The position numbers and the translations under genes were made by a program. A stretch of DNA of 64,000 bases. It comes from Haliotis rufescens. Taxonomy: Eukaryota. Position 1 is the stretch's first letter; each line of letters begins with the position of its first letter. The stretch lies in the NCBI RefSeq assembly GCF_023055435.1, contig NW_025963857.1, positions 22,072,001-22,136,000 of the forward strand. The letters run 5' to 3'. The notes below the pieces were generated by a model that was given only the letters and a program-made list of their open reading frames with translations, was not told the DNA's origin and searched no databases. Positions 8,764 through 61,672 of this stretch are shown piece after piece.

Positions 8764-11700
8764 CTTTAACACAAACATCAACTCATTCACAAACAAGAAC
8801 TCAACAAGAACTACCTAGAATCTGGTACATACATTTTTTTATAGCTACTCGATAAATCGCAAATAACAATAAAGAACGATAATTGTTTTGAGTATGTTTG
8901 AGAATTAAACTTAATACTCATTTTTCATTATTTTGAAGTTTATGAGTATATTCAGGATATGCAAAACTTAACACCCCATTCATAAAATAGACTGTACATA
9001 ACGATGACATCTTGTGTAAGAAATAAAAGACTTTAATTGTCTAACGTTCAATGAAACACTGCAGGGAGAATAAACCACTCAGGTGATAAATAGTTCACTT
9101 GCAGAAGTGATGAAAGAATCGAATAAAGTCACTGAATATAAATAGCTCATTGGCATCCTTAGCCTTGGCATAATCTGATAGAAAATACAAACAAATATTG
9201 TTTGAAGAACAGGATATCTAGTACTGCTGAAATGCCAATTCAACCAAATAATATGGTTGATGGTTGTTATATTCTTGTTTAATATATTAGTGTTCATATC
9301 AGTCGATGAACGTCTCGTCCATAATATTACTTACAGGCCGCAGTCAATGCCAGTTATATAATAGCTGGAATATTACTTTGTGCGAAATTGTACGAAAAAA
9401 AATATTTAAAAAATCCAAACTATTTCCAGACTGACCGTTGCATCTCCCTTCTTGGGTTTGCTTTCCTTGCGTGGGAAGAGGATAAGTTTGGAGTTGTACT
9501 CCTTCAGACGCTGCACATTCTGCTGCAGAGATTCCACCGTCTTGTTGCGACGACGGAAGTCAACTGAAATACCAATGGATCTGGCTTGCCTCTTGTTGAT
9601 ACCGGCTTGCTGTAAATAAGAGTCAAAAACTATTACACAAAACAAAAGCCAAAATTACATGATTACTGGCAAAATTTACATTATGGTCTACATAACTAAG
9701 ATTATTCTTGGGAAGAGAGCAAGTTTATTATGTTTCTGCACCACTAGGAGAGGTGATATGGGGTTTAACATCGTGGTTAGGATAATTGCACTAATATAGC
9801 AATGTGTATGTGTGTACGTGTGGCTGCTTGTACTAGTCCGGACAAATGCTGATTTCATAACTTGCTAACCCACTCAGATACCATGCAAATGTTTAACATC
9901 AATACCCCAACCAGATAGTTTTCTGACTCCAAGCCAAACAGTTCTATGACAGATGGCTTATGCACCACAGATAAGAGCACATGCAAGTATCGTGACCGTG
10001 AGTAAGGTATCGTGATATGTATCGGATCACACAGTTGGTGTATCGTCCCAGCCCCAGTGAAGAGTAAATCTAGTGTTTGTTTGTTGTTTAACGCCGCACT
10101 CAGCAATATTCCAGCAATATGACGGCCGTTGGTAAATTATCGAGGCTGGACCAGACAATCCAGTGATTGATATCATGACCATCGATCCACACAATTGGGA
10201 TCGATGACATGCTTCAACCAAGTCAGCGGCCCTGACCACCCAATCCTGTTAGTCGCCTCTTGCAACAAGCATAGTCGCATTTTACAGCAAGCATGGGATG
10301 CTGAAGACCTATTCTACCCTGGATCTTCACGGGTCTCTAGATCTGGTGAATCTGGTTTTACACTACTTGTACTGTTGTAGCACTGTCACCATGGTCACAG
10401 CAGGGCCAACCATGGGGTATTGAGCACCTGAATTGTTGAACTTGAACTTGCAAAATACATGTATCAAAAGGCTTGCACAACTTTTTTTCTACATCTACAA
10501 CATAATGTGTTTTGTTGTCTAATGCCAAACACAAAGGTGTAATAGTATTAGCATGAAAACTAACTGCAGCCAGTGGATACTTGATGTAAAGCTCACTCTC
10601 AAACAGGGAAAGAAACACCTTAAGACATGCTGACACACTGAAAACACTAGACAAAACTTTTGAAAAGTTAACTGGAAGCCTGATGATCAAATAAACAATG
10701 TTTTATAAGATTTATATGGATCAATCTTGTATATGTAGGATATGGTTGCCCAGAGTGTCAAAGACTATTTTGACAACTAGCCCGAACTTGGATATTAGCA
10801 TCATTTTCAGTAGTGTTATTATGTGGACTAGTATTAGCTGAGTTTACTAGAATGAACAGAATTTTACAAGACTCAGTGGCTAAAGTGGTTTGTTTGTCAC
10901 ATGCCATAGACAGCACTATTCCAGCTATACTAGTCATATAATCTGACTATGTCATCGTGTGCTCCACATTATCATGGTATAAGAAAATCTTGCAATCCAC
11001 ACCCTCAGTCGACTGTTGACTTATGCAAATCCAAGCACAATATTTCTTCAATTGATCACATACAGGACTCATTGCGGTATATCACAGCTACTCAGAGGTT
11101 AACACATCAACCTTTTAAAAATAGTTTATGGAATGTTTTTGAATGGAATTACCCCTACCTCCATTCAAAATTGGTTAGAAAAGAACCAATTTGTTTGGAC
11201 AATGTCCCTTGACCCAAACTCGGTCCGAATATTCTGCGATAATATACAGTTGCCCGCCCTTGAGTCGCTCATGGCAGATACTTTGTTTACCAATATCACT
11301 AAAGAAAATCAACATCAACCAATCCAAATTGATGGTCATAACGGTTGAAGAAATAAAAGAAACATTTTGCGTATGACATATTAATAGGTTTGTGAGCGTG
11401 TGCCATTACAATCTATCATAAATTAACTACTGCGATAATATAGCATACCATGCTACAACAGAGCCTGAGAGGCCTGCTTATAATCGAGTCTGGATAAAGC
11501 AGACCAGTGCCTGATACTGTGGGCAATGACCTGTGATGTCAGTGTACAATATATCAACCAAGTCAGAGTCTGACCAACTGATCTATTTGGTTGCCTCTTA
11601 TGTTCGGCAGAGGTTGCTGCCAAATTGCCAGTGACCAATTCTAAGGGGGAATCACATAAGGGGCCTACAATATGAAAACAACAGGTTACCTTCAGTTCTT

Positions 11701-11935
11701 CAAGAGTAAATCCACGACCAGCCCTGATTTTAGTGTTGTATTTGAAGGTTTGGCATCGTGCAATTGGGCGCAGATAACCTTTGACAGGGCGAGGGGCAAT
11801 GGCACGAGCTTTCTGCACACGTGTATCTTGTCTCCTCTGTTTTCTCATTGGCTGGTTGAACCATGTCCTAACACGGCGCTGCCAGTCCTTGTGGAAGTGC
11901 CCATTGGGCACCATGTTGTTCCCTTTTGGAGCCAT
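8560..11935 (-). CDS. RPL13: 60S ribosomal protein L13 (eL13); coding exons 11935-11690, 9609-9436, 8763-8560; 207 aa
   Basis: Spliced translation [29 protein letters not shown]...[10 protein letters not shown]|[23 protein letters not shown]...KKGDAT|[12 protein letters not shown]...[19 protein letters not shown] has the hallmark eL13 motifs. Both introns are phase 0 GT-AG; the last acceptor is AAG. Confidence 0.97.
9436..9609 (-). CDS. RPL13: RPL13 exon 3
   Basis: ttatttacag|CAAGCC ... ACG|gtcagt; QAGINKR...KKGDAT, 58 codons. Confidence 0.95.
10075..10335 (-). mobile_element. Family-A short retroelement in RPL13 intron 2
   Basis: Full-length reverse-complement copy. Confidence 0.88.
11690..11935 (-). 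CDS. RPL13: RPL13 first coding exon (exon 2)
   Basis: Acceptor tctttcacag at 11941, ATG at 11935, donor AAG|gtaacc; 82 codons. Confidence 0.96.
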
Positions 11936-18600: not shown

Positions 18601-21600
18601 CATATTCGACCTGTGCTCTTATTCATAATCACTCGTAGCAAATGGAGGGGCGGTCGGGTAGCCTTGTGGTTAAAGCGTTCGCTCGTCACGCCGAAGACCC
18701 GGGTTGGGTACAAGAATCCTGACATGGGTACAATGTGTAAAGCCCATTTCTGGTGTTCCCCGCCATGATATTGCTGGAATATTGCTAAAAGCAACGTAAA
18801 ACCAAACTCACTCACTCACTCACTCACTGTAGCAAATGGCTGCAAGATTGTTGATGTGATGTCAAGCAATAATCACTCGCTCACTTACTCGGAATACACA
18901 CAGGTTCTCGACTTAGCTACACAAATGGCAGTGTAGAGCATATGTTCATTTAACCTACCCAGCTCCTTCTACACTAAGCATGTTTAGTGCTCTAAAAGCG
19001 AGGGGCCTATGACTTAATGTTACTTGGGCGGTCGGGTAGCCTAGTGGTTAAAGCGTTTGCTCGTCACGCCGAAGACCCGGGTTCGATTCCCGACATGGGT
19101 ACAATGTGTGAAGCCCATTTCTGGTGTCCCCCGTCGTGATATTGCTGGAATATTGCTAAAAGCGGCGCAAAACCACACTCACTCACTCACCTTAATGTTA
19201 CTTAAACACTTGTATCACTTTAAACACTGATTACATTATTTCTATTTTGATAGTTGATTATTGGCTGATGTAAGGATAAGATATATGTTTATCCATACAT
19301 CGTATCCTTGCTTAGAACTCTCAACTTCTACATGCCTCTCAAACAAGACATTTTCTGATGATTATAAAGGGACATAACTCTGACCTGTTCCAGATTGGCT
19401 TTGTTGGTTTGGTGGAGGAGGAGTGGATAGAGACACTGGCGACCCTTGACCCCGAGGATGTCACATACCTAGACTTTGTCACCGAGGGTCAGAGACTCGC
19501 CAGCCTCCTAAAGAAAGAGGTGGGTGGGGGTCACAGAACATTCATCTTCCTTGGAAAACCGACCATCAACCTAAATATTAACTATCGAGTCTCATTAAGA
19601 ATAGATCTTTTATGCCAATACCATACCTCCCTGAATGTGGTGGCACGTGGTACTGTGCACAGTGCACAGGTCACAAATCAGGTGAAGTAAAGCAAGGTCA
19701 GTCGCGGAGAGCCCTTGGATGGGTGACCAAGCTTGGCTCCTGAGAGTTTTTACTATTTTAGGGCTTTGGTCCCCTCCCACACTGAAGCACATGTAACACA
19801 TGTGGCCTCTCCTTGGGCAAGGGACTTTGTTCGAAAATGTGCCTCTGTTCACCCAGCCATGAATGGGTACCCGGTAGGATGAGATGACAATGTGGTTGTT
19901 AACCTAACCTTACAGGCAGCTTGGGTTGTATACTCCCCATGGAGCTGAGAATGATTGTTGAGTGCAAACTGATCCAGTGACCGGGGTAATAATAACACTT
20001 TGAGCATGGTCCTGAGTGGTGTTGAAATACTAGCAATATAAAAAATAGCCTATTATGAATGAAAACACCACCTCCAGAGGACGTGGGTCAAGTGAACACT
20101 GAGCAAACTTTGACCATCCAATCAAAATACAGGATGTGTGGGTTCTTGAGGCAATCAGATGTCAACTTTCTAAAACAAGTCCGCTACATTTGTTTCCCAC
20201 CTCATTTTGAAGATTTAGATTTTAACAAAAGAAACACGCAGAACACAACTGTTCCTTCCTTCAATGGTCCTCTCTTTTGGGTGTAGATGCCTTGGTATTC
20301 AGAAACATCGGATGCAGCCTTTATTGTCTACATTTGCTGGTGACCCGTGAAGATCCGGGGTAGAGTAGGTCTGCAGCAACCCGTACTTGCGATAAAAGGC
20401 GACTATGCTTGTCGTAAGAGGCGACTAACGGGATCGTGTGCTCAGGCTCACTGACTTGGTTGATGCATGTCATCGTATCCCAATTGCGTGGATCGATGCT
20501 CATGATGTCAATCACTGGATTGTTTGGTCATGACTTGATTATTTACAGACTGCCGTCATATAGCTGGAATATTGCTGAGTTCGGCGTTAAACAACAAACA
20601 ACAAACAAACATAAGCTGGTCTGAATGCTTTGCTCACTTGCAGCAAACATTATAAGCCTTGACATTGCTTGGCTGATTAGAAAGTTCACCTGACATCTTC
20701 ATGCAGAGAGCCATCATATCGGAGTAAAAGATCTGATTTTACTGAGATTGTGACTAATCAAAAATCATTTAAAATAATTTTGAGGTCCTCCTGTCACAGG
20801 CTTTTAACTTTTCTTTTTGATGTATGACGTATGTCTCTGGGGCAGCAAGCATGTGTGATTTATTCTTTGAGATACGTCTACATTCAGGGAAAATGCTGTT
20901 TGACAGCACTGACATTATGAGAGTTCTGAATCGTTCTTAACCATGTCAGTTAGGATGGTTTCCATAACACTTTCTCAGGGCTGTATGTTGAACTATGAGA
21001 CACATCAGCCAATATTTCCAGAATGCATTTGATGGTCATTACTAGTCTCCATTACAAATAGTGGTGAGTGTATACTACTCAAAAGAAGTTCAGGATCACC
21101 TGATTCTTTCTATTTACTATAGTTAATCTCTCATGTCATGACAGATTAACTTCACCATTATGAAAGAATCGGGTGATCCTTAACTTCTTTTGAGTAGTAT
21201 ATGATAGCTTCTTCATATTAACTGTAAGTCATGTTAGAGCTTGCCAAAGATTATTTTATTGCGAGCGTAATCAAAGTAAACGTCAAATTGTGACAATGTC
21301 TAAGAATATTTTACATATTATTATTTGTTGTGTTATTTGTCTGTGAATCACTTTTCCAGCAAGGCTGTGACATGGTAATAGCACTGACCCACATGCGATG
21401 GCCAAATGACCGCCGGCTGGCAGAAAGTGTTCCAGATATAGACATCATCCTGGGAGGCCATGACCACGACTATGGAGTAGAGATGGTAAACACACTGCAT
21501 TGCTGAATATCCCTGGGGAGATCATGTGAGGATAGACCATCTCCATGGCCTAGTGGCCGGAGAGTGGAAGGTCCGGGGTTCGATCCCTGTACGCATCACG

Positions 21601-24123
21601 GTTACCAAAAGACGTTAAAAAATGGTTCTTGTTGTTACCCTGTCTGGTTCTCAGGATTTAGGAGCTAAAACAAGGACTGGTCGCCTTGGAGTCAGTAATA
21701 TGGTATTGCTCCCAGACCTGGCGGGTGGCTGGATGCGTGGAAGCTATGCCCAATTTTTTAAAAGTACTGATTTAATTTCGAAATTTTAATTATTGAACAA
21801 TGGGATGGTGTGAATGTTGTCCAAACTGCACGAAATTGCTTAAAATGCAATCAAATGTTTAATGTCTGGCATGCCCCCAGACCCCCCTACAGTTTTCCTC
21901 TTCTTTTTTTTAAAAGCTGCTTACATCCCTGCAGTTAACTGAACTCTCATGCCTTCGGGAAGATGTACACTATTGCTTGTTTGATTGTGTGACGTTCTTC
22001 CCCTATGAGGTGGGACGTTACTCATGGACCTGTGAAGATCCGGGTAGGGAATAGGTCTTCAGCAACTCATGCTTGCCGTAAAGAGGTGACTATGCTTGTC
22101 GTATGTGATGAAATATATAAATATACAGAAAAATCTTTGTCAGGAATTTTTTCTATCATGCTAGTTATAGCAGGGCGTGGAGTCATCCCACAGAAGACAT
22201 CCTTACCTTGTCAGCTTGCTGACGGGGTTAACCTCTTTGGTCATGTGGACAAGGTGTCCGACCTCGGATCAGAAGGTCTGTGTTTCGAATCCTATCACGG
22301 GACTCGGAAATTTTATGGCCGCTACATTGGCGCCCAACGTGGGGCTGAGCACGTTCATATTAAATTTGAGCAAAATAAGCCTGGGGTTAACCTCTTTGGT
22401 CATGTGAACAGATCAGATGAGAAGGTCCTTGGTTCGAATGCCATCACGGGACTCGGAAATTTTATGGCCGCTACACTAGCATGCAACACTCTCTGTTGTA
22501 CAGGTGAACAACACGTACATTGTGAAGAGTGGTACTGACTTCCGGAATCTCAGCAACATCAAGGTGACGAGGACAGGAGATGGGTGGGAGTTCGACATCC
22601 AGAGAGTGGATCTAGACTCTAGTATACCTGAAGATCCCCTCATGAAGGAGATTGTGGATAGTAAACTTGGTGAGTTGATAGTCGGATGAGAGTTTGAGAC
22701 ATCCAGAGAATTTATGGATGAACAACTTCTTAATTACAATTAAGAGCAATGTTTCGGTGTAGGTTCTAACACCGTCATTCAGCAAGTGATATACAGAGTG
22801 TAGTAAGCAAGTATATATACAAGTAGGAGGCAATGTTTACAGTAGAGTAGATATTGTGATACTGGAGTAGAGAAGCCTGTTATGTACACACAAGGGTAGT
22901 GATGACAATCATCGGTGAAGTCAGTGACATAAACAAAGGATGAAGCCAGTAATAAGCTGCTGCTTATATTACTGGCTTCATCCTACATTCGGACTACTTC
23001 CACATTCCTGTTGAAACCCCTGGGAATTCCCTTGCATGAATACATACAAAAGCATTGTTTCTGATCATTTAGACCCTATAATCTTGAATTCAGCTTACAT
23101 TGAGAAATGTCAGAGAGTTTGACTGCGTGACTATTTACCAATATCCTCGCTACGACCCATAGTGAACAAAACATAGAAATGCACATCCACTATTTTAGTA
23201 TTGACTCGGTCCGTGTCTAGACTGACAGTTACAGTCCACAGCAATCTATGAAATTACCTTAGTATGTATTTGTCACATCTTTATTATCACCTTTCAATGA
23301 TCGGCCAACTGATCAATGATGACTAACACATGTAACCGCCACAAGTTCATTAACAACTTCCGTAATCAATCCTGTCACGTTTATCGTGCCGGCCATATTG
23401 ACATCTTGTATTTGATGTGAATGTATTACAACTCACTGTCATTGTGACTGACTTACCTGTGTAGTTCTTAACAGACCTTTCTCACCCAAAGATGGTATTA
23501 TTTGAATGCATTTCTTGTAAACAAACTACAACAGATTTGCTTGATAAACAAGTTGAGCATACATACACTCATGGCACCTCTCTCTTTGGGGAACTATTTT
23601 ATCTCCGCGATACAGCTGGTTGTTGTATGGCTGTCAGTGTAAACAAGTCACATGTATAGATTTAGGGCGACATCCCCCGAGATATAAAAAAGTGCTATAA
23701 AAATTATAAGAATTAACTTTCATATTTGTGTGAGTTCATTGGGAGTAGGAGCCTTCATATAGTGAGGGCCACAGATTGTATGACTGTCGTCGCATGCGCC
23801 GACGTTCATACAGTGTGGCCATCAGTCTTTGAAGATTCATACTCCAAAGTGAAAGTCAATTCTTAATTAAACCTCCCGCTTTGGATGCTCTATTGAAAAT
23901 AATTCTATTGCCACTTAATCAGCCTTGTGGTTTAAGTGTTCGCTCGCCATACCTAAGATCAGGGTTTGTTTCCCACATGGGTACAATGTGTGAAGACCAT
24001 TTCTGGTGTCCCCCACCATGATATTGCTGGATTATTGCTAAAAGTGGCATCAAAACTAACTAACAAACGAACGAACGAACGAACGAACGAACGACTGACG
24101 AACGAACGAACGAACGAACGAAG

Positions 24124-42122: not shown

Positions 42123-42230
42123 AGCCTCGATGGCTGAGTGGGTTAGATTGCTGACTTTGTGTGCTGGCAATTAGGTGCCTCACTCTGGCAATGTGGGTTC
42201 GAATCCCGGATGGGACTCAACCGAAAAAAG
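42123..42230 (+). mobile_element. tRNA-derived (long variable arm) SINE head or pseudo-tRNA
   Basis: A box TGGCTGAGTGG and B box GGTTCGAATCC with a long spacer; no clean cloverleaf. Confidence 0.6.
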
Positions 42231-47849: not shown

Positions 47850-50800
47850 CAATTTTATTTCGTAAACTGAAATAAGGTCTAAATGTGATTATCCCTTGCT
47901 TCCGGTGGAAGCCACAAGCCTTTCAAAGTCACATGAGGAAAAACGAGATCTCATCTTTGATTCTCTGGCTTCCGAAGATGCAAGACGTTGAAATTTTCGT
48001 GCTCGTCTTGTGTTTTTCATCGTGAGCAATCTTCGATGGTGATTCTCCAGTCTTGCTCTTTTTGTACTTCTCTTCTTGGCATAACTCTTTTCTTCGGTTT
48101 TTAAACCGTCATGAGATCGGATCATTCATCGGGTTCCCATGGAGAGGATGCAATTCCTGTTAGTCAAAAGCATGGACGCCATGTGCCTGTCAGCCATGAG
48201 GCAACCACGGCCACTGGAACCAGCCATGAGGCAAACAATAACCAGAGCCATGAGGCAGTTGGTGACAATGGCAGACCTAATGATGTTGATTTGGAGAATC
48301 GAAGCAGGAAACGAAATAGGAAGGACTGGAAAGGCTTCACAATTCCAAAACGGGACCAAGCCAAATCTCGCCATCGTCATCGCAAAAGAAATGACAGTAG
48401 CACTAGTAGTTCTTCTTCCGATAGCTTGTCATCCAGCTCAAGTAGTGACAGTAGTTCGTCAGAATCGTCAGTTTCGGAAGATTGTGAAACCAACAATCGT
48501 ACTATTAGTACTGACAATCACCTGTATAAGCGTTTTAAGCCCACAGATGATAGGGCTGAACAAGAACTGTCTAACGAACTGCTAGATTATGCACATGAGC
48601 ATTTCAACCACTACATTAAAGATGAAGTTATCACCAAGAACATATAAGAGGGCTGTCCGACCCCAAAAGGATTTGTGCCACTGGAGCTTGATGAAGAATG
48701 GTCAGATATGTTGGAAGAAAAAAGATTTACTGCGGCTAAATCTGTTGAAGCAGGGTTGGGAAAAATCCAATCAAGACTACTCAATGTGATGGGACCACTC
48801 GGTCAAGTGTGGCAGACCGTGGATAAAATCAGAGATAAAGGTGGTGAAGAGATTGATGTGAACGACTTCTTTAAATTAGTTGAAAAGACTGTTTGTTTGT
48901 TGGGACAAGCCTACGTTGCCACTACCTTTTATAGAAGACTGAACATTCTAACAAAGCTAATGAAAAGTCAGAAAAAAGCCCAGAAGTTTCTCTCAAAGAA
49001 TGAGAAAAAGTTTAGTGACAAGAAGGCCTTGTTTGGCAAAGGTTTTTAAAAGAAATTGTTAAAGCTGTCCAAGGACAGAGAGAAGAGATTAGACATTGAG
49101 AGACAGTTTTCAGACTACAAAAACAAGAGCCACTATGGCTTCAAGAGCTCTGCTAGAGGGTTTCACAGAGGAAACAGCCGGCCCTTTCACAGAGGGCCCT
49201 CATCAAGTTACCAGGGTTACAGAGGTGGCGACCGTTACAGTTCCAACTCATTCCAGAAGATGCGATTCACCAACTCGACTAGAAAGCGAGACGGTGGTGG
49301 CAGAGGCAGAGAGTTTTCCAGAGGAAGATATGTATGCTTCACAATATCAAAAGGGAAACACACTGCACAGTCAGTTACAGGACTTAGACTTTCAGGTCAT
49401 TCAGGCAGATCCCAAACTAGGGGGGCGAATAAAACACCTCATAAAAAATTTGGAAAAGTTGACAAAGGATCATTTCATTCTAAATATTGTTCAAGGGTAC
49501 AGAATAGAATCAATCAAATTCCTCAGCAAAAATCAGAACCAAACGAACTAAAGATGCAAAAATCAGAAATGGACATAATGTCTGCAGAGGTAACAAAAAT
49601 GTTAGAGAAAGGGGCAGTGCAGTGCGTTTCTCCAGTAAGAAACCAGTTCGTGAGCACAGTGTTTGTAACACCAAAGAAAACAGGGGGTCACAGACCGGTA
49701 TTCAATGCAAAGAAACTAAACTGTTGTGTTGCTTACCAACACTTCCAAATGGAAGGAATTGTGACATTGACAGAACTCTTAAACAAACAGGACTATATGA
49801 TAAAAATAGATCTCAAAGATGCCTATCCCAGTGTGCAACGAGCACAAGAAATACTTAAGATTCCGCTGGCAAAACAAGCTTTACGAGTTTCAATGCTTAC
49901 CCTTCGGAATTGCTTCAGCACCGAGGGTATTTATTCACAAAGCTTTGAAACTAGTGATATCGTTCTTATGCAGAATAGGAATCCGAGCCCAAATTTATCT
50001 AGACAACTTAATTTTGGCAAATCCCCAGAAAGACGCATTGATGATAGACAAGGATTCGACCCTAGAAATTCTAGAGAAACTAGGTTTTGTAGTGAATTGG
50101 AAGAAGTCAGTCCTAGAATCATGTCCGATAATAGAGTACTTGGGTTTCACTGTCAACTCGATAGACATGACGTTGTCACTTCCACAGGACAAAGTGACTG
50201 GCATTCCTCGACAGTGCGAAATAATGTTGACTTGTTCCCACACAACTGTACAACAGCTAGCGACATTGATAGGCAAACTTACTGCCTCAATGATGGCGGT
50301 GCTACCAGCACCGCTACACTATCGACGTTTACTAATGTTGAGAACGAAAGCTCTCCTACCCAAACAAAACTACGAGACGAAAGTGACATTGACAGTAGAA
50401 TGCAAACAGGAACTGAGATGGTGAATACATCATCTCGCAGATTGGAACGGCAAATCTTTCCTCTCGACAGGGCCGGATGTAGTCATAACTACAGACGCCT
50501 CGAAATTGGGAGGGGAGCAGTGTATGGGAAAGTTCGGACAGGTGGAGTGTGGAGTCTCTCCGAGAGAAAACACCACATCAATGTTCTGGAGCTTATGGCT
50601 GCTTCGTTATCCATTCAGACATTTGCCAAGAGCAGAACAGATGTGCACATCCATCTAAGGATGGACAACCGATCAGCAGTGGCATACCTCAACAAGAAAG
50701 GGGGAACGAAGTCCATGGACTTGTTGACGGTAGCCCAAATGATCTGGGATTACCGCCTTGAGAAAAAGACCATAATATCGGCCGAATACCTTCCCGGGAA

Positions 50801-51505
50801 GGACAATGTGGAGGCAGATTGGGAATCGAGACACCACTCAGACTCCAGCAACTGGAAACTGAAAACAGTTTATTTCAATCAAATAAACAAAATTTGGGGA
50901 CCAATAAATGTGGATCTGTTTGCCGACAGACTGAACAGACAGGTGGACAGGTATGTCAGCTGGCGGCCAGATCCGACAGCATGACAAACGGATGCCTTCT
51001 AATGGAATGGAAGGACATGAAACCATATGCATTTCCCCCATTCAGATTAATAGGCCGATGCTTAATGAAGGTAAAAAAGGAAAAATCAGAACTCATACTA
51101 ATAGCTCCCACATGGCAAAGCCAACCATGGTTCCCTATTCTGATGAGCTTGTTAACAGAGGAGCCAATCCTCCTCCCTCCAGACCCACAGATGTTGTCGT
51201 CTCCAGCAGGGGAGACCCACCCCCTGATGGAACAAGGGTCTCTTACCCTTGCAGCCTGGAGAATCTCGGGAGTTGTAACCAGCCAGAAGGCATTTCTGAA
51301 TCGGCTTCCGAGTTACTCTCCAAATCCAGGCGCCCAGGCACCAGGAACTCTTACAACAGCTCCTGGCAGAAATGGCGTAGTTGGTGCATGGGGTGGGAAA
51401 TTGATCCATTTCAAGCCTCTGTGGCAAATGTGATTAAACTTTCTCACTCATCTGTATGAATCAGGCTATTCTTACAGCACAATCAATGCAATAAGATCTG
51501 CTATT
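47850..51505 (+). mobile_element. Decayed DIRS-type tyrosine-recombinase retrotransposon (ORF1, RT, RNase H, DAM-like methylase, recombinase N-terminus)
   Basis: Ser-rich ORF1 from 48111; KIDLKDAY, LPFGIASAPRVF, IYLDN (RT); TTDAS, HINVLEL, MDNRSAVAYLNKKGGT, YLPGKDNVEAD (RNase H); VDLFA, YAFPPF, APTWQSQPWF (methylase); SRRPGTRNSYNSSWQKW...YSYSTINAIRSAI (recombinase). Several frameshifts and stops; left boundary approximate. Confidence 0.92.
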
Positions 51506-54380: not shown

Positions 54381-55609
54381 TGTCTCACCCAAACTGCTGT
54401 TGCCAATCATTTTAATGTTCACCGTAGCGTCATCTCAAGAGCGATAACTCGATACCATCAAACTGGACTGATGACAGAGAGACCACGCACAGGTCGTCCA
54501 AGGGTGACAACTTCTTGTGAGGACCGGTATTTAGCCACCCTAGCCCGGAGAAACAGGTTTACTACGGCCAGATCTCTCCAGAATGACCTTCAGAGAGTTG
54601 CAGGAAACAGAGTCTCAACATAGACAGTAAGAAACAGACTTCACACTCAGGATCTGAGGTCCAGACGACCAGTATGACGTATCTCACTGCCTGCACACCA
54701 TCGACAACAGAGACTTGCTTGGGCCAATCAACGCCGTAACTGGAGGGTCAATCGCTGGCGTAACGTTCTCTTCACAGACGAGTCAAGATTCTGCCTTGAC
54801 TTCAACGATGGTAGGGCACGTGTGTGGAGAAATCCTAATGAACGATACGCCAACTGTACAATTGCTGAACACGACCAGTACGGAGGTGGAAGTTTGATGA
54901 TCTGGGCTGGCATCAGGGTTGGACACAGAACTGATCTTGTGGTCATCAGACGTGGTACCATGACTGGAGTACGGTACAGGGACGAGATTGTCACACCTGT
55001 GATCATTCCCCTGGCACAACAAGCGGGTCCTTACTTCATCTTTATGGATGATAATGCTCGTCCACATCGAGCAAGAGTTGTCACTGATCTTCTTCAGACC
55101 AACATCACGCATATGGACTGGCCTGCAAGGTCTCCGGATCTTAATCCCATTGAACATGCATGGGACATTCTTGGAAGGCGTGTTTATGATCTTCATGTTC
55201 GTCCTCAGAATCTGGATCAACTTGAACAGGCCTTAAGGAGAGAATGGCAGAACATTCCACAACAGACGCTTGATAGGCTTATCTGGTCAATGCCAAGACG
55301 TGTAGAAGCTTGCATTCAAGCCAATGGTGGACATACACATTACTGAACATTGGATCATTGTTTCAAAATGACTTAAACTCAAATTTAAAGATTTCATCCT
55401 CAGTACAGCACATTTTGCACGACTGTTTTCATGATACTGTTTTTGATCATTTGTAAACCTGTTAGGCATAAACGCTTTTCAGTTCCCTTTGAGGACAATG
55501 TGTGTTTGTGCTCTTTCTTTGTATTGCTTTAGTCAGTTTTTAGGTATTGGAATATATGAACATGGACTGACACATAATAGATTTGTTGCTTAACTTTTTG
55601 TGAGGAGTA
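54381..55609 (+). mobile_element. 5'-truncated Tc1-family transposon with transposase pseudogene
   Basis: HTH plus GRPR; VLFTDESRF; FMDDNARPH; WPARSPDLNPIE; GGHTHY* at 55346. In-frame stops at 54621 and about 54675; right TIR ends GAGGAGTA/TA. The D-to-E spacing here is 33 residues, probably a codon lost from DD34E. Confidence 0.93.
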
Positions 55610-60810: not shown

Positions 60811-60991
60811 TACTTTACGTGGTACGTTCCAGGAAAAGGCCCGTTTCTCGGAACTTCTTGTGTATGGTTCATTGTGGCATATTCTTATTTCCAGAATACA
60901 AAGGCTTCTAGACCAGCAGTAAATTGACACACCATCTCCGAAAGTTAGCCATAGGAATTTGGAACTTGTTTTCGACACTTCTGTCACCAAA

Positions 60992-61672
60992 ATGTCTGAG
61001 TCACGTTTAAAAGAGGCGAAAACATTCTTCACAGAGGGGAATAAGAAATCAGACGCCGTCATACAGGTGAAAGACCACGAGCTTCACGTGGACCTGAATA
61101 TAATCTCTCTGATGTCCCCGACATTGGCGAGTGAGTTCCAGCCACGCCCGGACCCCCTGTCTCCCCCTAGCGAAACCAACAAAGCCGTGGCCAAGTTGGA
61201 CGGACGTGTTGACCACATTGTGGACATGCTGACCTCCATCTACCCCAACTTCAGGAGCGTCAACGTTGTTGATAAAGACAACGTCGAGTACCTACTCCCA
61301 CTGGCTGCGAAGTACAAGCTGCTGTTTCTGATGGATACGTGTGAAACATTGATAATTGGAGCGGCACCTGGCATGAATGACTCTTACCACACATGCCAGA
61401 TAGAAATAACAAATGAAGAATACAAACACGAGAATAAAGATCGTCTCATGCGGTATTTCGTGTTGGCGCATAAACATGAATTAGATGTAGTGAGGAAATG
61501 TTGTATGGACAAGTTAGTAAAATGCTCTTATAGCATACAGACCAATCATCAGACTAGAAGGAATCCAACACGACGCACTGCCGCCTTCCAGCAGCTCGAC
61601 CCAACTACAAGATGGGAAATACTGAGAAATCGATTATTTTACCTGGAAGGTGAGTTATTGTTTCGTGCTTGA
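60992..61672 (+). CDS. BTB/POZ-domain protein, intact uninterrupted ORF, 226 aa
   Basis: Fits the BTB pattern: FF...SDAVIQVKDHELHVDLNIISLMSPTLASEF...IVDMLTSIYP...VDKDNVEYLLPLAAKYKLLFLMDTCE, followed by a helical C-terminus. ATG in AAAATGT context after an acceptor at 60893. Confidence 0.85.
   Translation: MSESRLKEAKTFFTEGNKKSDAVIQVKDHELHVDLNIISLMSPTLASEFQPRPDPLSPPSETNKAVAKLDGRVDHIVDMLTSIYPNFRSVNVVDKDNVEYLLPLAAKYKLLFLMDTCETLIIGAAPGMNDSYHTCQIEITNEEYKHENKDRLMRYFVLAHKHELDVVRKCCMDKLVKCSYSIQTNHQTRRNPTRRTAAFQQLDPTTRWEILRNRLFYLEGELLFRA

What the first reader, a model, noticed from the sequence alone, without database searches (positions are those of the whole stretch)
22166..22475. Miniature LTR retrotransposon whose LTRs are built from tRNA-Arg and which is primed by tRNA-Lys
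Seen: two direct repeats ending ...GGCCGCTACA (22224-22326, 22383-22475). One base after the first is TGGCGCCCAACGTGGGGC, the exact 18-nt tRNA-Lys(CUU) primer-binding site known from retroviruses and LTR elements. The repeat contains TGGACAAGGTGTCCGACCTCGGATCAGAAGG...TTCGAATCC, which aligns to metazoan tRNA-Arg(TCG) and so supplies Pol III A/B boxes. The left end TATAGC (22166) is a one-change mirror of GCTACA, and the flanks are ctagt/ctagc. Inference: a non-coding ~310-bp TRIM that carries a Pol III promoter in its LTR, a SINE/LTR hybrid. The 3' LTR has lost about 58 nt of its 5' end together with most of the polypurine tract. It parallels plant Cassandra (5S in LTR) and, as I recall, the recently named Helenus group (tRNA in LTR); I cannot tell whether this family is catalogued. 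The apparent TSD is 5 bp. The element ends only 28 nt before the nucleotidase exon starting at 22504, so it may supply the branch point.
Basis: partly seen in the sequence, partly recalled or inferred. Interest (0 to 1): 0.8.

Follow-up and report, generated by a model that had tools for sequence, protein, structure and literature searches.

The report
Abalone mini-retrotransposon and its Gypsy helper
This is a worn copy of a tiny non-coding jumping gene with a tRNA-like promoter, a known type not listed before from snails, and hybrid insertions elsewhere in the genome point to the larger retrotransposons whose machinery it borrows to spread.

Summary
22166-22475 is a decayed, internally deleted copy of a 428-bp TRIM: 161-bp LTRs, 106-bp interior, 18-nt tRNA-Lys(CUU) PBS, and 967 exact matches to one LTR 26-mer genome-wide. 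The TSD is 4 bp (48 of 55 insertions), not 5. It meets the testable features of animal Helenus (Kojima 2024). The host is an abalone-like gastropod, a class absent from that paper's tables. The new part lies outside the window. A young Ty3/Gypsy family with open reading frames shares the PBS, the first 10 LTR bases, the GCTACA end, the 4-bp TSD and a TG-NNNN-CA target bias. Ten loci are TRIM/Gypsy hybrids involving three Gypsy families; eight are bounded by one matching TSD, so they recombined before integration. This is direct genomic evidence for a helper, which the Helenus paper inferred only from PBS likeness. Pol III transcription is inferred, not shown. The start site (LTR nt 59) was not resolved by controls. 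The branch-point idea is untested, and the normal acceptor is used.

The parts
22161..22164 (+). Left 4-bp target-site duplication (CTAG), followed by one extra base at 22165
   Evidence: family TSD 4 bp in 48 of 55 insertions; site fits the TG-NNNN-CA bias
22166..22326 (+). Complete 5' LTR, 161 bp, 154 of 161 identical to young copy L004
22205..22228 (+). U3 hairpin (LTR nt 40-63)
   Evidence: fold; a similar hairpin lies upstream of the A box in oyster Helenus LTRs (by eye)
22224..22235 (+). 12-nt self-complementary stretch (LTR nt 59-70); candidate RNA 5' end and dimer signal (inferred)
   Evidence: strongest self-duplex 12-mer in the predicted RNA, -17.2 kcal/mol; several truncations start here, controls not decisive
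22238..22248 (+). Pol III A-box-like motif
   Evidence: alignment to host tRNA genes
22246..22274 (+). tRNA-Arg(TCG)-like block; not a functional tRNA
   Evidence: 26 of 29 nt to host gene L052 in the intact copy; ARAGORN calls no tRNA in five loci with intact copies or here
22282..22292 (+). Pol III B box, one substitution in this copy, perfect in young copies
22311..22314 (+). T4 run, candidate Pol III terminator; the only run of four T's in each LTR, none in the interior
22328..22345 (+). 18-nt primer-binding site for tRNA-Lys(CUU)
22327..22382 (+). First 56 of 106 nt of the interior; the rest, with the PPT, is missing
   Evidence: 56 of 56 identical to L004
22383..22475 (+). 3' LTR remnant (LTR nt 59-161) with a 10-nt internal loss
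   Evidence: 88 of 103 columns identical to L004
22476..22479 (+). Right 4-bp target-site duplication (CTAG)
22504..22669 (+). Host exon of a 5'-nucleotidase-family gene (PF00149/PF02872); the element sits in the intron before it, same strand
   Evidence: spliced piece 22503-22669 in run X1

Best explanation
The window holds a dead, partly deleted copy of a Helenus-type TRIM. SHOWN: the family is a 428-bp LTR-PBS-PPT-LTR element without coding capacity, inserted with 4-bp TSDs, recently active, with tRNA-like LTRs. STRONGLY INFERRED: it is copied and integrated inside the particles of tRNA-Lys-primed Ty3/Gypsy elements, chiefly one young family (B) and at times two others (C, D). It mimics what their enzymes read (PBS, LTR tips, G-rich PPT) and shares nothing else with them. 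INFERRED, about 70%: its RNA is made by Pol III from the internal A/B boxes. Probably it starts near LTR nt 59 (about 50%), reads through a leaky T4 in the 5' LTR and stops at the T4 of the 3' LTR, giving an R region of about 90 nt. The window copy's join of interior nt 56 to LTR nt 59 is either a template jump from the RNA 5' end or a later genomic deletion at a hairpin edge; the data do not decide.
For: Structure, TSDs and LTR pairs with 0-9 differences. Family B: ORFs of 533 aa (PNMA-like Gag) and 1391 aa (RT-RNase H-integrase), LTR pairs 99.8-100% identical where aligned, LTR starting with the same 10 nt and ending GCTACA, same 18-nt PBS, 4-bp TSD in 11 of 11 and the same target bias (G at -1 or C at +1: TRIM 61 of 96, B 15 of 22). 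Hybrids bounded by one TSD: L074 (TRIM LTRs with 0 differences around B sequence), L090 (B LTR left, TRIM LTR right), L092, L159, L167, L060, L067, L093. Head-to-head joins break at the end of the 18-nt PBS, as expected for plus-strand strong-stop DNA. Perfect B box in young copies; no T4 in the interior.
Against: No RNA evidence for Pol III use. The T4 in the 5' LTR must be read through, and the A box is imperfect. Breakpoints at LTR 58-59 (6 loci, two found outside the test pattern) are not clearly more frequent than at control positions (3 at 68-69, 2-3 at 45-46). One captured LTR piece starts at nt 86 (L167). The L084 and L092 junctions have 5-nt microhomology. Two of ten hybrids could not be tested for a TSD. 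Hybrids show shared particles but not which family supplied the enzymes in each case.
Confidence: 0.8

Rival explanations
1. Same element and helper, but the RNA is made by Pol II (from U3 or by read-through from neighbours), and the tRNA-like part is a vestige.
For: The T4 just after the B box would stop Pol III before the PBS; the element is found in transcript-like contigs that could be read-through.
Against: No AATAAA in the 161-bp LTR, whereas B's LTR has one. Perfect B box in young copies. A T-run after the tRNA-like part recurs in many published Helenus LTRs (by eye).
Confidence: 0.15
2. The hybrids come from nested insertion, ectopic recombination at the shared PBS, or mis-assembly, and say nothing about the helper.
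For: L075 and L084 are complex loci with internal duplications; 18-24 nt of shared sequence could seed recombination.
Against: Eight hybrids have one matching 4-bp TSD at their outer ends, which recombination between two loci would not give. Inner joins fall at the PBS, LTR tip or microhomologies rather than at whole-element boundaries. Inverted LTR-PBS-LTR forms fit cDNA mis-priming.
Confidence: 0.07
3. This copy has been co-opted as the branch point of the nucleotidase intron.
For: The insertion moved a TNAY candidate at -31 away, and the element offers a YTNAY match at -40. The 3' junction is present in another run (X15).
Against: Motif matches only. The acceptor at 22504 is used in X1 and X2 with no shifted form seen. 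No empty allele was available for comparison.
Confidence: 0.12
4. Two ordinary tRNA-Arg SINE heads beside an antisense tRNA-Lys fragment.
For: Gastropod MESC SINEs have tRNA-Arg-like heads (PMC4758252, passages).
Against: Fixed TG...CA ends, constant 4-bp TSD, PPT, solo LTRs and 267-bp arrays. Of 8 fetched of 9 matches to the Arg core, 7 were these LTRs and 1 the tRNA gene.
Confidence: 0.01

Closest known systems
Helenus, animal group (Kojima 2024, PMC10886601)
   Same: TRIM under 1 kb; tRNA-like sequence in both LTRs; PBS and PPT; 4-bp TSD; Lys(CUU) primer; solo LTRs and tandem arrays. By eye, the hairpin and GGGTTAACC motif before the A box match Helenus-1_CGi, -2_CVi, -3_SaGl and -6_SaGl, and the PPT end matches Helenus-3_CGi and -1_LiLo.
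   Different: Gastropod host (none in Table 1 or S1); Arg(TCG)-like core where molluscan Helenus were aligned to Lys(TTT); full 18-nt PBS, which none of the published consensus sequences has; helper supported by shared LTR tips and hybrids, not only by PBS likeness.
Cassandra (plant TRIM with 5S rRNA in its LTRs) and Ajax
   Same: Small-RNA-derived Pol III promoter inside the LTR; long tandem arrays.
   Different: tRNA-type, not 5S-type, promoter; 4-bp TSD (Ajax 5 bp). Cassandra's partner is described as unknown (PMC7215508, PMC10886601). Cassandra's R region is 18 nt; here about 90 nt is predicted.
Template-switch complex LTR insertions (Sabot and Schulman 2007, PMC1950507); TRIM-TRIM chimeras in sugar beet (PMC13570524)
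   Same: Hybrids made during reverse transcription and integrated with one TSD.
   Different: In the passages seen, those join related autonomous elements or two TRIMs. Here a tRNA-LTR TRIM joins unrelated coding Gypsy families, including inverted LTR-PBS-LTR forms.
Ty3/Gypsy LTR retrotransposons (family B)
   Same: Gag, then RT-RNase H-integrase order; no room for env; 4-bp TSD.
   Different: Clade not assigned; no named reference sequences were available to compare.

Membership tests
Helenus (animal) | Non-coding LTR element under 1000 bp (TRIM) | tested here: met
   428 bp: 161+106+161
Helenus (animal) | tRNA-derived sequence with A and B boxes in the LTRs | tested here: met
   alignment to host tRNA-Arg(TCG), score 56 against shuffle maximum 27; perfect B box, imperfect A box
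Helenus (animal) | PBS complementary to a tRNA 3' end, just inside the 5' LTR | tested here: met
   host tRNA-Lys(CTT)
Helenus (animal) | PPT before the 3' LTR | tested here: met
   G-rich tract in intact copies; lost in the window copy
Helenus (animal) | 4-bp TSD | tested here: met
   48 of 55 insertions with both ends; 6 had none, 1 had 2 bp
Helenus (animal) | tRNA-like part is not a functional tRNA and is not the primer | tested here: met
   no ARAGORN call; no cloverleaf fold; Arg-like core versus Lys PBS
Helenus (animal) | Mobilised by Gypsy | tested here: met
   genomic evidence only: shared ends and single-TSD hybrids
TRIMp3 (proposed class) | Transcription by RNA polymerase III | not testable with these tools
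   the one raw small-RNA run laid gave 0 reads, which the tool marks as no test
A published Helenus family | Sequence identity to a listed consensus | tested here: not met
   four family motifs absent from the whole supplement; none of the molluscan, brachiopod or nemertean entries read by eye is this family. Repbase and Dfam could not be searched
tRNA-derived SINE | Head at the 5' end, tail, variable-length TSD | tested here: not met
   tRNA-like part is internal to TG...CA repeats; TSD fixed at 4 bp

The most novel reading that the evidence does not exclude
The TRIM is a Pol III RNA that begins with a 12-nt palindrome used for dimerisation and is packaged by at least three distinct Lys-primed Gypsy families. 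It swaps LTRs and interiors with them often (5 of 19 young B-type loci are hybrids, one placing the tRNA-LTR at the head of a complete B interior), which gives a visible route for Helenus families to change helper and primer. Shared upstream motifs with oyster and ribbon-worm Helenus would put the lineage before the gastropod-bivalve split, or mark a horizontal transfer.
Probability: 0.35. Interest if true: 0.75.

Novelty: new member of a known kind. Interest (0 to 1): 0.55.

Why it matters
The Helenus paper says it is not known how a TRIM's dependence on its autonomous partner is maintained, and that Cassandra's partner is unidentified (PMC10886601; also PMC7215508). This genome holds a young small-RNA-promoter TRIM, young coding Gypsy families and recombinants between them. 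That names candidate helpers and shows which cis features are shared: LTR tips, PBS, PPT type and target bias. It makes the Pol III and packaging questions answerable by RNA and particle sequencing in a farmed animal group. It also extends Helenus to gastropods. The window copy itself is an ordinary dead insertion.

Tried and rejected
Rfam found no tRNA or other family at the element. RNA test: no RNA holder was listed on record; miRNA run X19 laid 0 reads, no test; contig runs cannot show starts or strand. Start-site test: exclusion pattern at LTR 59 gave 22 hits, of which I inspected 11 (9 fetched plus L084 and L092); most of the rest are G-run variants by their listed letters. True 5' breaks at 58-59 total 6 including the window and L177, against 3 of 10 hits at 68-69 and 2-3 of 6 hits at 45-46; not decisive. 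The idea that the palindrome pairs with B's leader was rejected: that site is not among B's or C's eight best duplex sites. A deleted subfamily was rejected: the window junction is unique. A donor SINE was not found among 9 pattern hits (8 fetched) or in 719 kb held; this is not a genome-wide exclusion. A 5-bp TSD was rejected. Ten PBS+T hits were mostly TRIM variants, with one family C element and one hybrid. L161 (TRIM-TRIM head-to-head) has no matching TSD; L073 (C-C) had no right end in view. Two look-ups in earlier scan findings were empty.

Full report
1. Observation. A search of the own genome with 22166-22475 returned 98 matches from 40 scored of 1817 candidates, at 92-98% identity, in pairs and in arrays with a 267-bp period. 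The top 30 loci define a 428-bp element: LTR 161, interior 106, LTR 161, ends TG...CA, LTR pairs differing at 0-9 sites. One LTR 26-mer has 967 exact matches, arrays and segmental copies included. Of 40 loci taken down the list on contig C1 (one large array and loci already held were skipped), 20 were two-LTR elements, 18 solo or partial single LTRs and 2 rearranged. Of 55 non-redundant insertions with both ends, 48 have an exact 4-bp TSD, 6 none and 1 two bases; target sites are biased to TG-NNNN-CA. The window site reads ATG-CTAG-CAT, so the TSD is CTAG and 22165 is an extra base.

2. The window copy. Its 5' LTR is 154/161 identical to young copy L004, the interior 56/56, and the 3' remnant 88 of 103 columns. 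Interior nt 56 is joined to LTR nt 59 with no microhomology, removing the PPT and U3; this junction is unique in the genome. Both B boxes are mutated. It lies on the sense strand in an intron of a 5'-nucleotidase-family gene with exons from about 15528 to 38630. The exon peptide is 98% and 93% identical to two Haliotis proteins and 55-65% to other named molluscs, so the host is taken to be an abalone-like vetigastropod.

3. tRNA parts. Host tRNA-Lys(CTT) genes supply the primer (197 pattern matches). A host tRNA-Arg(TCG) gene (L052) matches the LTR at 26 of 29 nt from D-loop to variable loop; Thr(AGT) scores nearly as well overall, while Lys and an Asp-like head do not beat shuffles. The anticodon arm is broken and ARAGORN calls nothing. 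The only T4 runs lie 19 nt after each B box. I infer Pol III initiation upstream of the A box, leaky read-through of the first T4 and termination at the second. That A-flanked T4 runs terminate weakly is recalled, not tested.

4. The helper. I searched for the same PBS followed by a non-TRIM base (41 and 10 hits). This gave family B: about 9.2 kb with 871-bp LTRs, ORFs of 533 and 1391 aa with PNMA-like Gag and RT, RNase H and integrase domains. Thirteen non-hybrid two-LTR copies were seen; ten have both frames at full length. B's LTR begins with the same 10 nt as the TRIM's and ends in GCTACA, but is otherwise unrelated. Its TSD is 4 bp in 11 of 11 copies tested, with the same target bias. Family C is a Gypsy 74% identical to B inside; a third, D, is 35% identical to B in the protease region.

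5. Hybrids. Ten loci mix TRIM and Gypsy sequence. L074: identical TRIM LTRs enclosing B leader, a B LTR piece and TRIM interior. L090: B LTR on the left, TRIM interior and LTRs on the right. L092: B element whose middle is replaced by TRIM LTR 59-161 and part of the PBS. L159: TRIM LTRs around 348 bp of B pol (found as 1 of the 40 unselected loci). L167: inverted TRIM LTRs around D gag and protease pieces. L060, L067, L093: a C LTR joined head-to-head to a TRIM LTR through the partly palindromic PBS. All eight have one matching 4-bp TSD at their outer ends. L075 (a TRIM LTR heading a complete B interior) and L084 are complex and could not be tested. Among the 41 hits, 19 loci hold young B sequence and 5 of them are hybrids. 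Normal reverse transcription makes two identical LTRs, and recombination between loci does not keep one TSD, so these are best read as cDNAs recombined inside shared particles and then integrated. Template-switch insertions of this general kind are described in cereals (PMC1950507, passages).

6. Start site. The window, L084, L092, L094, L099 and L177 break at LTR 58-59, 14 nt before the A box, at a 12-nt palindrome that is the best self-duplex in the predicted RNA. Controls at two other positions gave 3 and 2-3 breaks, L167 breaks at 86, and hairpin edges may attract breaks, so this stays at about even odds. By eye, many published animal Helenus LTRs have a palindrome of differing sequence at the same place (for example Helenus-1_CGi, -1_MyGa, -1_BaPl, -1_AcRu, LTR2_Lch); others lack it, and I did not count.

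7. Splicing. Contigs from X1 and X2 (RNA by the tool's guess) begin the exon at 22503/22504; X15 holds the element's 3' junction exactly. Branch-point motifs exist both in the element (-40) and in the inferred empty site (-31). Co-option is untested.

8. Comparison with print. PMC10886601: whole main text read, supplement parts 1, 5, 6, 7, 10 and 11 of 11, and two term searches over the whole supplement; parts 2-4, 8 and 9 were not read. It lists bivalves but no gastropod, gives 4-bp TSDs for animal Helenus, infers Gypsy mobilisation from PBS likeness, and leaves Pol III use unvalidated. Passages only: PMC12859917, PMC13570524, PMC1950507, PMC4758252, PMC7215508. Listing only: PMC6238403. Searches showed no gastropod Helenus and no Helenus/Gypsy hybrids. 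Repbase, Dfam and subscription journals were out of reach, so the family may be catalogued there.

9. Verdict. A real feature and a new member of Helenus. The window copy is unremarkable; the value lies in the genome-wide evidence for its helpers. Interest 0.55.

Noticed in passing
G000:C79:12773898-12803913 (L043-L045): Tandem array of tRNA-Lys(CTT) genes with a 297-bp period; 197 matches to the tRNA 3'-end pattern genome-wide, 99 of the first 100 listed in this array. This is the primer for the TRIM and its helpers.
   Followed up: partly
L073 (G000:C112:24421737): Family C LTR joined head-to-head to another C LTR through the PBS; L161 is the TRIM-TRIM equivalent. Such inverted forms would look like MITEs.
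   Followed up: partly
L176:1101-1392; joints: Tandem repeats of LTR nt 1-49, a small satellite derived from U3; depth over LTR 17-45 in X15 is about ten times that over the B-box region.
   Followed up: no
G000:C112:51216460-51220624 and C1:43919625-43988014: A 15-unit array of the 267-bp TRIM unit, and a 2250-bp-period array that carries TRIM LTRs.
   Followed up: no
L169 and L170: Two more unrelated elements with the same 18-nt PBS, preceded by ...TTCAT; not classified.
   Followed up: no
window 21541-21700: Abundant tRNA-headed SINE-like repeat, with copies at about 5087, 8333, 29954 and in many fetched loci; possibly a MESC-type SINE (untested).
   Followed up: partly
window 21071-21201 and 22937-22984: A 65-bp-arm inverted repeat with other genomic copies (MITE-like) and a perfect 18-bp-arm hairpin in the next intron.
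   Followed up: no
window 22037-22103 and 22704-22790: Short high-copy repeats flanking the element and the exon.
   Followed up: no
window 11690-11935 (-), 49050-50984 (+), 54678-55346 (+), 60923-61672 (+), 42124-42218 (+): RPL13 exon, an RT-like ORF (weak RVT_1), a DDE_3 transposase piece, a BTB-domain ORF, and a 95-nt ARAGORN tRNA-Thr call that may be a SINE head.
   Followed up: no
Helenus supplement: A T-run after the tRNA-like part and a variable palindrome before the A box recur in many published Helenus LTRs; the main text, read whole, does not discuss them for Helenus.
   Followed up: partly
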